From Salinispira sp. (GTDB lineage Bacteria; Spirochaetota; Spirochaetia; DSM-27196; Salinispiraceae): a stretch of DNA of 64,000 bases. The DNA lies in the NCBI GenBank assembly GCA_965602015.1, contig OZ271918.1, positions 1,248,001 through 1,312,000 of the forward strand. The letters run 5' to 3'. Position numbers: made by a program. Shown here one piece after another: positions 15,001 to 24,000 of this stretch (positions are counted from its first letter, which is position 1; each line of letters starts with the position of its first letter).

Positions 15001-18000
15001 CTTCGGATATCCGGTCTACCATGGCTTTGCGGCATCGACGGCGCCATTCGCGCTTGCGCTCTGCCGGGTCAGTTCATCACCGAGGCTGTTGAGTTCACGG
15101 GCAACAGTGCTTGTGGTTTCCGCGGTTTGACTGATATGCGTATCCATCTGGATGATCTTTTGAACCATCGATTGGCTGTTCGCTGCAATTTCTACGCTGG
15201 CGCTGCTGGTATCCGAAACCGCAGAACCCAAATCTTCCCGCAACAGGTGGCTTGAGTTTCTCGTATCTGCAATGTTCCTAAAACTGCCCGCAAGGGACCG
15301 GGTAAAGGTATCGAGCTGGGCTGACAGCCTGCCGATTTCGTCTGTGCCCTCCTGAGGAAATCGGACGCGCAGATCATTTGTCGACAGGGTGTGAATGCCG
15401 CCCAGCAGCTGAAAATCTGAGCGCTGAGCCGTCGGATTGTGAACCCGATAATGATTACCGTAAGGAGGATCATCACATTCACCACGCCGATGGATATCAG
15501 ATTGCTTCTGCGGGAAATGTTCTCGACCCGGTCTTGAATAATGCGCCGCTGATTCCCGAGGTTGTTCAACGAGGTCACGAGGATGTCGTCGAGAGTTATG
15601 CTCGAGCGTTGAAACTGGGCGACGGCGAACAGGAAGGGGTTGAACGCCGGATTGTCTCGAAGGACGAGACTGGTGTATCCCAAATACAGGCTGTCGAACT
15701 GCCGTCCGCCGGGCAAATCACTAAAGCGAGTGACGACTTCATTGTACGAAGCCTCGAATCGGGGATAGGTCGAGTCAAGAAGATTGGCCAGGTTTTGGAT
15801 ATTGCCCAAGGCCTCTTCAATGTTTTGGTCAAGGCCCGGCAGGATGCGCAGATTTTGAAGCTCTGCGAATCCCGCATCGAGGTCTTCTTTTGCGGCGATG
15901 AGATTCGGCTGTCCTTCATCGATTGGGCGGTAATCGAGGCTGGAGGCGCTTGCCCGCATGAGCGCCAGGGACTACTCCAGCTCCGAGAGAAGCGCAGCTT
16001 CGGTTTCAATGCGGGCAAGGCGGTTTTGGGTCAGGAGCAAGAGGCCAACGGAAAAGATCTGGGAGATAATAAAAATGACGGTTATGCTATACAGCCTGGC
16101 CTTGAAACTCATCGGCTCTCCTCGTTTAGGGGCTCTGTTTCACATTATCCGTGTCGCCATACTTGTTCCGGAATGGAAGGTCAGCAAAGATTTCACTCAC
16201 AAAGTAAAATTTAGTCTGTTTCCATCGGTTTTACAAATTTGATGCGGGTCACAATCTTTGTATGACGGCGGGTTTACCGCGGATTTGCTGTCATTGGTTT
16301 TGGCTTGATGAAGCACTTCCGGAGGTATGGCTGATGCTATTGACTGCATCGCGCGGATGTTCGCGGAAGGGCAGGAGCAGCATTATTTAATACATCCGCG
16401 TTCATCCGCGAGAACCCGCGGCGAGATTTCAAAGAAAGTTATAGAGCGTCGCGATGGTGACGATGGTGGTAAAGCCCAGCCCGAACATCCACATCAGCTG
16501 GTTAAAGCGTTTGTCGGTAGAACTTTGGTTCTCCTCGAAGCGCTTGTCTACAGCCTCGAAGCGTTTGTCTACAGCCTCGAAGCGCTTGTCTACAGCCTCG
16601 AAGCGCTTGTCTACAGCCTCGAAGCGCTTGTCCAAATACTGGATAAGGTCATCGAAGCGTTTATCACTGGCTTCAAAGCGTTTGTCCATGTGGTGAAGTG
16701 TTTGGTCGAAGCGCCGGTCCATTTCTTCAAAACGCAATGAATGTTCGCGCAACTGGCTCTTTATTTCGTTGGACTCGGCAAGCAATTCCTGGTGGCGTTT
16801 GTCCAGGATTTCCTGTCGGCGCTGGGCTTCTTCTTTTTTCTCCATGGCATTGGTGAGAAGGACGAAGCCCTGGTGGAGGCTGTCCCGGTCACCTGTGGAG
16901 CGCCAGTTTTCGAGTTGGTTTTCTACGATTGGAAGGATATCCGACATTTCCATCTCCTTATAAAAATAGCCTGTTTGTACTGGTATTACAAGATTTTGCA
17001 GGCTGGTGCTTCGAAAGGAAGGAGGTTGGTTTACCGCGGATCGGTCTCGGGTGGTGTCGACCCGGGCATGGTTCTGCCGGTGGCCTCGGGAGGATTGCGT
17101 GCTGCATTGCGCGGATGTTCGCGGAGAGGCTAGGAATAACTAATCCTTACATCCGTGTTCATCTGCGAAAATCCGCGGTGAACTCCATCCAATGGCATTA
17201 CAGGAAAATCCGCAGTTAAATATCAAAGAAAATTATAGAGCGTCGCGATGGTGACGATTGTGGTAAAGCCCATGCCAAACATCCACATGAGCTGGTTGAA
17301 TCTTTTGTCGGTAGAGCTTTGATTTTCCTCAAAGCGCTTGTCCATATGATGGATGAGGTCATCGAAACGTTTATCACTGGCTTCGAATCGTTTGTCCATG
17401 GCTTCGAAGCGCTTGTCCATGTGATGAAGGGTTTCGTCAAAACGCCGGTCCATCTCTTCGAAACGTATTGAGTGTTCGCGAAGCTGGCTTTTTATTTCGT
17501 TGGACTCGGCTAAGAGTTCCTGATGGCGCTTATCGAGGATTTCCTGTCTGCGCTGCGCTTCTTCTTTTTTCTCCATGGCATTGGTGAGAAGGACAAAGCC
17601 CTGGTGGAGGCTGTTCCGGTCGCCTGTGGATCGCCAGTTTTCGAGTTGGTTTTCTACGATTGGAAGGATATCGGACATTTCCATCTCCTTAATAAAATAG
17701 CCTGTTTGTACTGGTATTACAAGATTTTGCAGGCTGGTGCTTCGATTAGGAGGGGCGGGTTTACCGCGGATTTGCTGTCATTGGTTTTGGCTTGATGGGG
17801 GGCTTTCGGAGTTATTTGTGACGCCATTGGTTTATTCGCGCAGATGTTCGCGGAGAGGCTGGAAATAACTCATCCTTACATCCGTGTTCATCCGCGAAAA
17901 TCCGCGGTGAAATCCATCCAATGGCATTACAGGAAAATACGCGGTGAAAATTCAAAGAAAGTTATAGAGCGTCGCGATGGTGACGATGGTGGTAAAGCCC

Positions 18001-21000: not shown

Positions 21001-24000
21001 GGAGGCGTTCCGGGAGAAGGCGGGTATCGGGGTGTCTTCCGCGGATGACAGACCCACGGCTTTCCGTCCGGGGCCGCCGGTGGGGTTTTTTCCCTTTGAG
21101 AGTGACGGCTCGGATGTTATTCGGGAGCGGATTGGGTTTTACCGCCGGGAGCTGGGTTATGATGCGGAGAATATCTGCGTGTTGGCTCCGTCCATGAGGG
21201 TTCTTTCGGGGCTTCAGAAGGTCTTCGGCAACGGGCTTGAGTCGGTGGTGGTGCACCGGCCGGAGTGGGAGTTTGCCGAGCCTGATGGGTCGGGCAGGGT
21301 GGTTGTCGACGGGGTGAGTGAGTTTGATTTTGCGTCTTCTTCGGGGGTGAGGTTGTGTACGCTTCATTCGGCGAAGGGGCTTGATTTTCCGGTGGTGCTG
21401 GTGTTTTTGCCGCATTCGGTGAGGTTGAAGTGGATGGATATGTTGTCCCCGTCCCAGGCTGACGAGACGATGGCGTCGCTGTTGTATGTCGCCTTGACCC
21501 GGGGTTTGGATCATCTGGAGGTGGTTGCCGGGAAGGGGTTCGGGAAGGAGAGACCTGAAGCGGCGCTGCTGGAGGTGTTGGCTGAGCAGGGGCAGGGCGG
21601 CTGAAGTATAGGGTCCGGCGGAGTACCGCGGAGTTCTTTGGAGTTTGGCGGGTATTAGGGAGAGAAAAGAGTGTTTACGATAATTGCACTGATTTTTAGT
21701 TTGGTGGCCGGTGTTGCCCAATGGGCGATTTTATTTGTGGTTCTTGCATATGTTGCCTGGTTTCTTGGCTGGATATAGGGCCACATACTGCTTTATGTAC
21801 TATTTGCTTTGATTTTTGTATTACCGCGGATTTGATGGCCTTGGTTCTTGGGAAGATGGTGGTCTTTTGGTGTTTATAGGTGGTGTTAGAGGCTGCCTTG
21901 CGCGGATTCTCGCGGAAATAGTAAAGATTGTATTGTTTTGTAGACGGGGTGCGACGGTTGTGCAGGAATAAAAGGCTGGATGTGTTGCTCCTTCCGGGGT
22001 TTTTAATTGTAGCCTTCGGTCGCAGCTTGTAAAGGCACGCTTCGCTCTTCGCCTTCGGCTCGGCCTTGACAAGCCGCTCCCTTCACGCTCCTTCGGGGTA
22101 AAACCCGGAGGAGGTCAGCATGGGAAAGTTGCTGCATGAGTCGATGAGTTATGAGGTTGTGGGTGCGCTGTTTGAGGTGCATAAGGAGTTGGGTCCAGGG
22201 CTTTTGAGAGTGCGTATGAAGGGGCTCTTGTTATTGAGCTGCAGGACCGGGGCTTAAGTGTTGGCCGGCAGGTGGTGTACCCACTGGAGTACAAGGGCAG
22301 AACTGCCGGGGCGTACATTGCGGACCTGGTGGTTGAGGACTGCATTATTGTGGAGTTGAAGGCGGTCAGGGCGCTCAATGAGCTTATGCAGGCTCAGCTG
22401 TTGAACTACCTGCGGTTGAGCGGGTTGCAGGTTGGGTACCTGGTTAACATGGCCGGGGCTGAGGTGGTTTGGAAGCGGTTGGTTTTGTCGGGGTGAGGGT
22501 GGTTATACCTCAGTATTCTCAACCAAATTGTTAAATAACCGGCGGGACTTTATAAGCTTTTGAAATAGTGACCATGTGTATCACAGCGAGTGATGAAGGA
22601 GACCCATATGGAATATATAAATAACCTAAAGGCGATTCTTCACTCAAAACGGGCTAACATCTTCTATCTCGAAAAATGTAGAGTGCTAATGAAAGATGGT
22701 CGAGTTGTATATCTGACTGAAACTAAAATGGAAAATCAGTATTTCAACATACCGGTCGCAAATACAACAGTAATCCTTCTAGGAATGGGAACTTCCATAA
22801 CGCAAGCAGCAGTACGGATGCTATCATCCGCAGGCGTATTGCTAGGCTTTAGCGGGACCGGTGGTACTCCCCTCTTTATGGGTTCAGAGATAGAATGGAT
22901 GACTCCTCAAAGTGAATATCGCCCGACAGAGTATGTGCAAGGATGGTTATCCTTTTGGTTTGATGAAGACAAGCGTCTTTCAGTTGCAAAACATTTCCAA
23001 CAGGCAAGAGTAAAATTCTTATCTCAGGTTTGGAGTAAAGACCGAGATCTACAGGACCATCAGTTTTTCTGCGATGAAGACGATATACAACGAGCAATTG
23101 AAATATTTACCAACGAGATCCCAGAGGCAGGCTCAACAGAATACCTTTTGAGCAGCGAAGCACAATTTACGAAACGATTATATAAAGCTGCCGCATTACG
23201 TACCGGAAACTCTCGTTTTACAAGGGAACGATCATCTAGTGACAAGGCAAACACTTTTCTCAACCATGGGAACTACCTTGCATATGGTTTGGCTGCTACA
23301 TGTCTATGGGTCTTGGGAATACCCCACGGGTTTGCGGTAATGCATGGTAAAACTCGGCGTGGAGCTCTGGTTTTTGATGTTGCAGATATTATTAAAGACG
23401 CAATTATACTACCATGGGCATTCATTTGTGCCCAAGTCGATATGAATGATCAGGATTTCAGACAGCATTGTTTAGTCCAATTTACGAAACATAAGGCATT
23501 GGATGCAATGTTTGCCCTTATAAAAAATATTGCTGTGCACAAGGGCGATAGTGGAGCAATGGGATGATTGTAACCTTTATTTCCCAATGTGATAAAAAAG
23601 CATTAATCCGTACCCGACGAATTCTTGATACCTATGCATCAAGAATTGGGAGTCGTACCTGGCAAACCGTCATTACTATGGATGGATTGGCTGCAGTGAA
23701 AAAGCACCTTCGAAAATCTGCGACAAGAAATACAGCAGTCTCGTGCCATCTACTCCGTGGAAGAACCCGAACAGAATTACTCTGGGTAGTTGGTAACAGA
23801 CACAAGTTTAATTCCGAAGGTGTAGTTCCAGTGCACACAACTAAAAAGGATGTCTTTTCAGGACTATATGAAAGCGACTGGAATCTTCTACCCGTGATCA
23901 AGATTATTGCTGCTATATCTGCCTTGCTTCATGATTGGGGTAAGGCTTCTGAGCTTTTCCAATCAAAACTGCATCCAAGGACTAAAAGTAAAGAAAAACC

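What a model noticed while it worked through the whole genome (the two positions that open the first line are those of the whole stretch)
16113..22496. GxxExxY genes are the cargo of an inverted-repeat-bounded mobile element; empty repeat pairs punctuate a tandem Bdr-like [...]
The functionless family TIGR04256 (GxxExxY, PD-(D/E)XK nuclease fold) is the passenger of a ~450-bp element bounded by terminal inverted repeats of ~10-bp subunits, which sits between normally adjacent housekeeping genes in many phyla. In this genome every exact copy of that terminal repeat lies in one 6-kb locus. There, gene-less left+right arm pairs separate three tandem Bdr-like paralogs (g01082-84) next to a frameshifted GxxExxY (g01086/87), an arrangement like RAYT with REPINs. 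The local subfamily also carries a conserved hairpin just before its ribosome-binding site.
Evidence so far: An inverted repeat between the 150 nt before and after the gene (local score >=28) is present in 21 of 60 metagenome loci and 23 of 34 genome loci from many phyla. The control, this genome's 90-160-aa genes, gives 0.4% of 480 (46). Loci without it are mostly the close subfamily like ours. Insertions sit between carA and carB (L200; L144 before carB), gltB and gltD (L161), and gyrA and gyrB (L215); carA-carB and gltB-gltD are adjacent in this genome. The arm motif at 0 mismatches has 6 hits in 3.87 Mb, all within 1265179-1267180; the same arms flank the Bdr-like array in G157. The family is patchy: 6 of 61 order genomes, 9 copies here (42). 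The model (pLDDT 94.6) is nearest to Cas4 SSO0001 an [...]
(Added by a program. Inside this text positions count along the whole contig: contig position 1,248,001 is position 1 of the stretch shown here. "Call 12" and the like, gene names such as g00115 and contig names such as C1 are that model's own, and its searches are not shown. The text may have been shortened before it was handed on; [...] marks where a part breaks off. The agent that wrote the report below was given it as the finding of a first reader that could run no searches.)

Follow-up and report, generated by a model that had tools for sequence, protein, structure and literature searches.

The report
Hairpin repeats of GxxExxY nuclease elements
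The palindromic repeats between three duplicated membrane-protein genes are gene-less relics of a widespread, apparently undescribed selfish DNA element, whose full form carries a small nuclease gene that seems to be the repeats' own partner rather than a passenger.

Summary
Observation largely confirmed. Four left+right palindromic units (7-nt cores at 10-nt spacing) flank three coiled-coil/TM paralogs. These match no Bdr model. The GxxExxY gene is frameshifted, lies 3.5 kb away beyond a helicase, and has only a left arm.

Family-wide, inverted arms bracket 49 of 79 GxxExxY genes, against 7 of 223 control ORFs. I found the missing empty sites: at two gene junctions, relatives show a bare spacer, an empty hairpin or a gene-filled form, and at one the states are scattered over the host-gene tree.

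'Cargo of a TIR transposon' is not supported. I found no target-site duplication, no cognate transposase, no RAYT in this genome and no interchangeable cargo. Arm motif follows the nuclease clade, even within one genome. There is no G-U strand bias for an mRNA stem.

Best reading (0.5): the nuclease is the cognate factor of its arms and spreads by cutting and gene conversion into empty hairpins. The window holds relics multiplied by tandem duplication.

This scan has reported the arm link on other DNA 13 times; 10 literature searches found no description. No activity is shown.

The parts
16276..16421 (.). Hairpin unit H1: left arm (outer core, about 65-nt insert of type A, two inner cores), about 25-nt spacer, right arm of three cores
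16429..16953 (-). Coiled-coil paralog 3 (174 aa; heptad repeats, hydrophobic C-terminus); no Bdr match
17033..17179 (.). Hairpin unit H2 (left-arm insert of type B)
17223..17684 (-). Coiled-coil paralog 2 (153 aa)
17763..17908 (.). Hairpin unit H3 (left half 82% to H1; right half 93% to H2)
17952..18392 (-). Coiled-coil paralog 1 (146 aa)
18471..18618 (.). Hairpin unit H4 (left half 94% to H2)
18879..19180 (.). Decayed fifth unit (left arm 18879-18939) and a run of right arms (19040-19180)
19301..21604 (+). UvrD/REP-like superfamily 1 helicase (767 aa), a host gene between the array and GxxExxY
21823..21916 (+). Lone left arm with the same insert layout (67-73% to the left halves of H1-H4); no right arm downstream
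21989..22114 (+). Leader hairpin before GxxExxY (conserved stem about 22027-22072) and ribosome-binding site (22107-22114); no Rfam match
22120..22496 (+). GxxExxY gene (TIGR04256 / PF13366), frameshifted near 22206-22208

Best explanation
The repeats and the GxxExxY gene form one selfish unit. SHOWN: the unit is a pair of inverted arms, each made of 2-4 seven-base cores at 9-10-nt spacing. It occurs empty (60-150 nt), with the gene between the arms, or as hairpin-gene-hairpin; it gains and loses the gene repeatedly at fixed intergenic sites; and arm motif travels with the protein clade. INFERRED: the protein, a minimal PD-(D/E)XK nuclease with intact catalytic residues, recognises the phased cores of its own arm type and cuts the gene-less hairpin, where the arms are close enough to form a cruciform or a compact complex. 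Host recombinational repair then copies in a gene-bearing allele (homing-like gene conversion), or integrates a gene+hairpin circle. Loss occurs by recombination between repeats or by deletion of the loop. In this window the element is dead: one frameshifted gene keeps a left arm, and empty hairpins were multiplied by unequal crossing-over together with a coiled-coil gene and its promoter.
For: Bracketing: 49 of 79 loci against 7 of 223 control ORFs. Empty-site series 1, a short-chain reductase / trans-2-enoyl-CoA reductase junction in genus g20: bare 34-nt spacer in G088, one hairpin in G264 and G288, hairpin-gene-hairpin in G200 and G283 (11 genomes examined; 5 hold other genes there and 1 a different gene order). 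Series 2, the HemN-family / cyclase junction in the genus of G297, top 30 of 89 hits: 10 filled (including the query), 12 empty hairpins, 5 GIY-YIG with a different palindrome, 1 remnant, 1 bare, 1 unresolved. These states are not clustered on the flanking-gene tree: 16 changes against 17.2 shuffled, 36 rows, with at least 8 changes of the filled state forced by well-supported branches. Arm type follows the protein tree: 10 changes against 32.7 shuffled, 0 of 200 (216 rows, 51 unlabelled). Within genomes, same clade gave the same arm class in 14 of 14 pairs and different clades a different class in 13 of 20. Cores pair 556 of 588, linkers 41 of 74. E30, D69, E79, K81, Q93 and Y97 are invariant; the fold is generic PD-(D/E)XK. 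Local duplication mosaic: left halves H1~H3 and H2~H4, right halves H2~H3. A second paralog array (S41 peptidases in G200) is punctuated the same way.
Against: No binding, cutting or homing is shown. Co-travel of arms and gene is also what plain linkage gives. Seven of 20 cross-clade pairs share an arm class. Homing explains filling of existing hairpins but not how hairpins reach bare sites. Linker complementarity is above the permuted expectation (41 vs 29.5 of 74, p=0.003), so some pairing selection or arm-to-arm homogenisation exists. The local subfamily is not bracketed: 0 of 8 loci reach score 28. The protein tree has few columns and many open forks, and the host tree rests on one flanking gene. 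Direction (gain or loss) at the empty sites is not determined. In G297, near-identical arm pairs spread inside an unrelated larger element.
Confidence: 0.5

Rival explanations
1. One reading: a non-autonomous terminal-inverted-repeat element moved whole by a transposase encoded elsewhere (DDE or RAYT/TIRYT type), with GxxExxY as passenger.
For: Sharp, conserved outer ends: five core positions are invariant in both arms of 24 of 24 elements. Bare sites exist. Empty pairs are dispersed: 33 arm hits in G297 and 34 in G210, 0 in controls. TIRtrons have this layout (PMC3733652, passages).
Against: No duplication longer than 3-4 chance bases beside 10 local units; a TA duplication cannot be told apart from the palindrome end. 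No Y1 gene in G000, G001, G002 or G200, and none of 6 Y1 hits in G297/G210 is flanked by these arms. No recurring other cargo. Arm motif follows the passenger's own phylogeny.
Confidence: 0.2
2. The arms act as RNA: they pair in the operon transcript and loop the ORF out for RNase III-type excision, like a 23S rRNA intervening sequence, making the insertion harmless; how it spreads is a separate matter.
For: Most filled elements lie co-oriented inside operons. Units fold well. Linkers pair above chance. The Coxiella IVS is a 428-nt selfish element with an ORF (PMC4990558, search listing only).
Against: No excess of G-U over A-C pairs on the coding strand: 85:111 in 60 loci and 19:22 in 42 anchored elements. 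In G001 linkers pair 2 of 36 against cores 105 of 126 (related copies). The window's left arms carry a roughly 65-nt insert. Hairpin-gene-hairpin forms do not loop the gene out.
Confidence: 0.15
3. The arms are operators or structural sites for a GxxExxY protein that serves the host (defence, repair or regulation); patchiness reflects ordinary accessory-gene turnover at recombination hotspots.
For: The g20 junction also takes toxin-antitoxin and restriction-modification-like genes without these arms. The window gene abuts a type I-F CRISPR-Cas locus and a helicase.
Against: Arms lie on both sides of the gene and persist as empty pairs far from any gene. Copy number runs from 0 to 10 per genome with many broken copies. 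Neighbouring genes are unrelated across loci.
Confidence: 0.1
4. The window's units are integron attC sites and the coiled-coil genes are cassettes.
For: Genes lie between palindromes, each with its own promoter-like motif. The genome encodes an integron integrase.
Against: The integrase lies about 470 kb away beside its own cassette-like array, whose attC-like sites do not resemble these units. The paralogs are 85-87% identical tandem duplicates.
Confidence: 0.03

Closest known systems
REPtrons/REPINs with RAYT (TnpA-REP), and TIRtrons with TIRYT (PMC3733652 passages; PMC8266576 abstract)
   Same: One small DNA-processing gene flanked by inverted repeats; gene-less repeat dimers dispersed between genes; enzyme groups matched to their own repeat types.
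   Different: The enzyme is a PD-(D/E)XK nuclease, not a HUH tyrosine transposase. The arms are arrays of phased 7-nt cores, not GTAG-tagged stem-loops. The gene itself is multi-copy and turns over at fixed sites.
Homing endonuclease genes (from my own knowledge)
   Same: A small nuclease gene with filled and empty alleles at one site, and repeated gain, decay and loss.
   Different: No intron or intein. The proposed target is a dispersed repeat that belongs to the element, not a host gene. Homing is not shown.
MITEs / insertion sequences with terminal inverted repeats
   Same: Inverted ends, short non-coding forms, intergenic position.
   Different: No target-site duplication or cognate transposase found; the ends are repeated cores with loose linkers.
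23S rRNA intervening sequences with an ORF (PMC4990558, search listing)
   Same: A roughly 0.5-kb selfish insert with an ORF in the loop of a stem.
   Different: Lies between protein genes, shows no G-U strand bias, and encodes a different protein.
PDDEXK_3 / TIGR04256 GxxExxY family (PMC3424549, table passage: function unknown, multiple transfers)
   Same: The window gene is a broken member.
   Different: No link to flanking repeats appears in the passage I read.

Membership tests
GxxExxY (TIGR04256 / PF13366) | HMM score above cut-off | tested here: met
   C-terminal piece 103.8 bits against cut-off 35; 97.9 against 22
GxxExxY (TIGR04256 / PF13366) | Intact reading frame in the window copy | tested here: not met
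   Frameshift near 22206-22208, same letters in run contigs of one sample
REPtron / REPIN-RAYT | Cognate HUH (Y1) transposase in the genome | tested here: not met
   0 PF01797 hits in G000, G001, G002 and G200; the family rang in 6 of 14 control genomes
REPtron / REPIN-RAYT | Y1 gene flanked by these repeats where present | tested here: not met
   0 of 6 Y1 loci in G297/G210 flanked by the arms
REPtron / REPIN-RAYT | Dispersed gene-less inverted dimers | tested here: met
   G297 and G210; only a local cluster in this genome
TIR transposon / MITE | Terminal inverted repeats | tested here: met
TIR transposon / MITE | Target-site duplication | tested here: inconclusive
   None over 3-4 nt beside 10 local units; a TA duplication cannot be separated from the palindrome end; bare sites are 86-88% diverged or more
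TIR transposon / MITE | Encoded or cognate transposase fold | tested here: inconclusive
   The model matches PD-(D/E)XK nucleases only; a helper elsewhere is not excluded
Homing endonuclease gene | Filled and empty alleles at the same site | tested here: met
Homing endonuclease gene | Cuts the empty allele and spares the filled one | not testable with these tools
   needs biochemistry
rRNA-type intervening sequence | Stem selected as RNA on the transcribed strand | tested here: not met
   G-U:A-C 85:111 and 19:22
rRNA-type intervening sequence | Excision from the transcript | not testable with these tools
   no RNA holder listed
Integron attC array | Likeness to the genome's own attC sites and linkage to the integrase | tested here: not met
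Bdr (Borrelia direct repeat) proteins | Match to a Bdr family model | tested here: inconclusive
   No Bdr-named model among the Pfam or NCBIfam hits to E 0.01-1; I did not confirm that these libraries hold a Bdr model; relatives are unnamed coiled-coil proteins

The most novel reading that the evidence does not exclude
GxxExxY proteins are the autonomous nucleases of a distinct class of prokaryotic selfish element. Each clade recognises its own helically phased palindromic arms, homes into empty hairpins and seeds new ones without any transposase. Parallel systems with other small nucleases (GIY-YIG with its own palindrome) compete for the same intergenic sites.
Probability: 0.35. Interest if true: 0.88.

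Novelty: new variant of a known kind. Interest (0 to 1): 0.68.

Why it matters
PF13366 is very large and has no assigned function: a profile finds 8,738 clusters at 50% identity to E 1e-10, and it occurs in 69 of 251 sampled Spirochaetota genomes. The arm link gives it a concrete substrate and a clade-specific prediction that one binding or cutting assay can test. It would also explain a class of unannotated intergenic palindromes in genomes without RAYT, extend the repeat-plus-cognate-enzyme design from HUH transposases to PD-(D/E)XK (and perhaps GIY-YIG) nucleases, and supply 125-residue sequence- or structure-specific nucleases. The window itself is only a decayed example.

Tried and rejected
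Viral contigs: 0 loci with the local protein and 2 with the canonical alignment, so there is no sign of a phage origin in that collection. Rfam: no match to the arms or the leader hairpin. Expression: no RNA holder listed. No transposase or recombinase fold among the listed structure matches; this absence is not an exclusion. 'Nearest to Cas4 SSO0001' holds in Foldseek (E 8e-5) but is tied with BpuSI and others at Z 7.6-8.0 in the wider search, so it is not specific. The integron reading was rejected. Synteny of the island's left flank could not be fixed: the adjacent dehydrogenase has only 33-35% hits in G001/G002. A HicB-like label for the 51-aa ORF between arms in G001 is recalled; Pfam and NCBIfam gave no hit. 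The leader hairpin has weak covariation (4 of 11 pairs with a double change in 6 sequences, covariation term -0.14) and the window copy folds at z -0.8 as DNA; its role is open. An arm-pattern scan of viral contigs was not obtained, so an unbiased cargo survey there is missing. Literature: 10 searches found no description of repeats around GxxExxY; 3 papers hold the term, 2 were listed and I read passages of 1. Subscription journals and bioRxiv supplements were not visible, and I did not open the TIR lists in the supplements of PMC3733652, which may bear on novelty.
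Full report
1. What is in the window. 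On the minus strand lie three paralogs of 174, 153 and 146 aa (16429-16953, 17223-17684, 17952-18392), 85-87% identical in DNA, with heptad repeats and a hydrophobic C-terminus. They hit only generic coiled-coil models below cut-off in Pfam and NCBIfam and no Bdr-named model. Their relatives are unnamed proteins of many phyla, so 'Bdr-like' describes shape only. Four palindromic units flank them (16276-16421, 17033-17179, 17763-17908, 18471-18618), followed by a decayed fifth unit and a run of right arms (18879-19180). Each arm has CGCGGAT-type cores 10 nt apart; here the left arms carry a roughly 65-nt insert between the first and second core, absent from the compact 70-nt units of same-genus G001. 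Next come a 767-aa UvrD-like helicase, a lone left arm (21823-21916), a leader hairpin, the GxxExxY gene (22120-22496, frameshift near 22206-22208) and type I-F cas1. No right arm follows the gene. Contigs of three public runs of one sample cover the break without gaps.

2. More than chance. Triple-core patterns give 5-6 hits in the genome, all in this locus. A two-core pattern gives 18 hits, 12 in the window, 2 in the reversed genome; the outliers inspected are in ORFs. G001 has 9 matches, all on the contig with the same helicase and coiled-coil array; G002 has 2, one just before its helicase; two same-family genomes have none. The other eight GxxExxY matches in this genome lack bracketing arms.

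3. The family-wide claim holds. In 79 cross-phylum loci with full flanks (82 fetched), the 150 nt on either side form an inverted repeat of score 28 or more in 49, against 7 of 223 other ORFs in the same loci and 6 of 2370 shuffles. Direct repeats of the flanks occur in 15 of 79 against 4 of 223. These loci were the best hits to one clade, so the rate is not a family average; 30 Spirochaetota loci gave 12 of 30. The family occurs in 69 of 251 sampled phylum genomes and, with the local protein as query, 6 of 99 order genomes including this one.

4. Empty sites. (a) In genus g20, at a short-chain reductase / trans-2-enoyl-CoA reductase junction, 11 genomes of 26 searched were read. G088 has a bare 34-nt spacer; G264 and G288 have one hairpin; G200 and G283 have hairpin-GxxExxY-hairpin as direct repeats; five carry other genes (a PIN-domain pair, an MqsA-like pair, and methylase/restriction-like pairs, the last labelled by eye); one has a different gene order. 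(b) In the genus of G297, at a HemN-family / cyclase junction, the top 30 of 89 hits in 101 genomes show 10 left-gene-right elements, 12 empty hairpins (9 AG-type, 3 GAT-type like the window's), 5 GIY-YIG genes inside a different palindrome, 1 remnant, 1 bare 10-nt spacer and 1 unresolved. On a tree of the flanking cyclase gene (36 rows: those 30 less the unresolved one, plus 7 filled loci) the states are not clustered: 16 changes against 17.2 shuffled. The site is refilled or emptied again and again. Direction is not determined.

5. Passenger or partner? On a tree of 216 proteins, arm type (165 labelled) needs 10 changes against 32.7 shuffled, 0 of 200 (few columns, many open forks). The local spirochaete subfamily falls outside the large AG-arm clade, among GAT-arm proteins, and three of its members have GAT arms upstream, so the window's arms are of the right type for its gene. 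Within single genomes (55 rows in 17 genomes, one duplicated), same-clade pairs share the arm class in 14 of 14 and cross-clade pairs differ in 13 of 20: the arm follows the gene, not the host. Of 59 inward pairs enclosing 200 nt or more, 54 hold GxxExxY, 4 an unrelated long ORF and 1 none; 67 pairs are short and empty (sample biased). Host genes, including the coiled-coil paralogs, lie between neighbouring elements. This favours a cognate factor, though linkage alone gives the same pattern.

6. DNA or RNA? G-U against A-C pairs on the coding strand are 85:111 in 60 loci (local alignments, some reaching into flanks) and 19:22 in 42 anchored elements: no RNA-strand bias. Cores pair 556 of 588, linkers 41 of 74. 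The linker figure is above the permuted 29.5 (p=0.003), so some pairing or homogenisation exists. At the G297 junction, arms of one element match each other only slightly better than arms of other elements (25.1 vs 24.2 of 30 for filled elements). In six related G001 units linkers pair 2 of 36. Phased conserved cores with loose linkers look like protein-binding sites (inference).

7. The protein. The model (pLDDT 94.1) is a minimal PD-(D/E)XK fold; matches include Cas4 SSO0001, lambda exonuclease, Hjc and BpuSI without a clear winner. E30, D69, E79, K81, Q93 and Y97 are invariant in 30 close homologs; reading Q93-Y97 as the RecB/Cas4-type QxxxY motif is recalled. Such nucleases cut but, from general knowledge, do not join strands, so mobility needs host repair or a helper. 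No Y1/RAYT was found in this genome, G001, G002 or G200; Y1 genes in G297/G210 have other flanks; no target duplication flanks ten local units; the genome's integron has unrelated sites.

8. How the local array arose. Left halves pair H1~H3 (82%) and H2~H4 (94%), right halves H2~H3 (93%), and the promoter-like spacers are 82-90% alike. This is a mosaic of unequal crossing-over, not four insertions. Each paralog has a -35/N17/-10-like motif just before its start (a consensus match only). In G200 an S41 peptidase array is punctuated by near-identical hairpins with shared flanks. The coiled-coil gene and helicase are also neighbours, without arms, in G011 and G019. The hairpins may promote such duplications or simply ride along.

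9. Leader hairpin. A stem before the ribosome-binding site is conserved in the local subfamily, in G002's copy and before genes of both major clades in G248: 9 of 255 loci, no Rfam match, weak covariation. It is probably a regulatory leader and separate from the arms.

10. Comparison and verdict. The layout is that of REPtrons and TIRtrons (PMC3733652, passages), and enzyme-repeat co-evolution is known for TnpA-REP (PMC8266576, abstract), but the HUH transposase that defines them is absent. PDDEXK_3 is listed as of unknown function with multiple transfers (PMC3424549, table passage). Ten literature searches found no account of these repeats. This scan has reported the arm link on other DNA in 13 findings, 8 of which I saw (unchecked notes, not used as support). 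Shown: anatomy, association, turnover. Inferred: recognition, cutting, homing. I rate it a new variant of the repeat-plus-cognate-enzyme kind, with a real chance (0.35) of being a class of its own; the window is a relic.

Noticed in passing
window 30834 to about 37585, interrupted at 31222-33615; second insert from 37580 to about 40000: Type I-F CRISPR array (Rfam CRISPR-DR4) interrupted by a 2.4-kb IS66-family element, with a second, about 90% identical, apparently broken copy further on.
   Followed up: partly
L201, L212, L218, L223, L228 (HemN-family / cyclase junction, genus of G297): A 94-aa GIY-YIG gene inside a different palindrome family occupies the same site as GxxExxY elements; its left arm overlaps and changes the 3' end of the upstream gene. 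It may be a parallel system.
   Followed up: partly
L355, L357, L363, L365, L367, L373, L377 (G297): Near-identical 137-nt arm pairs lie at the centre of a roughly 225-nt element with its own 8-nt inverted ends and 8-9-nt flanking duplications in several copies: arms hitch-hiking in an unrelated MITE-like element.
   Followed up: partly
window 14321-16113 (minus strand): A methyl-accepting chemotaxis gene appears split into separate ORFs (15192-15959 and 14321-15022).
   Followed up: no
G000:C1 about 1733800-1743973: An integron integrase above cut-off with an upstream cassette-like array including toxin-antitoxin-like pairs.
   Followed up: partly
L103 (G200:C1:2247000-2266000): Tandem S41 peptidase paralogs separated by near-identical arm hairpins with shared flanks.
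   Followed up: partly
L099, L100, L101, L104, L105 (g20 junction): The junction that holds the GxxExxY element in G200 takes toxin-antitoxin and methylase/restriction-like gene pairs in relatives; G209 keeps only the tip of a right arm.
   Followed up: partly
L027:5381-8254 and L028:3062-5587: The coiled-coil gene and the UvrD-like helicase are neighbours in another family of the order, co-oriented and without arms.
   Followed up: no
L001-L009 (own genome): The other GxxExxY copies are 95-100% identical, lie in three clusters and share long flanks with downstream palindromes; one is cut upstream by an IS21-like end (by eye) and one is split.
   Followed up: no
window 14129-14239: A 13-nt tandem repeat upstream of the iron-alcohol-dehydrogenase-like gene.
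   Followed up: no
P0124, P0126, P0131-P0137 and others: Many representatives of 250-295 aa have two matched stretches: tandem double-domain GxxExxY proteins, which may hint at a dimer.
   Followed up: no
L333, L334, L338: GxxExxY-like matches inside 883-aa open frames in three Bacteroidota genomes: a possible fusion to a larger protein.
   Followed up: no
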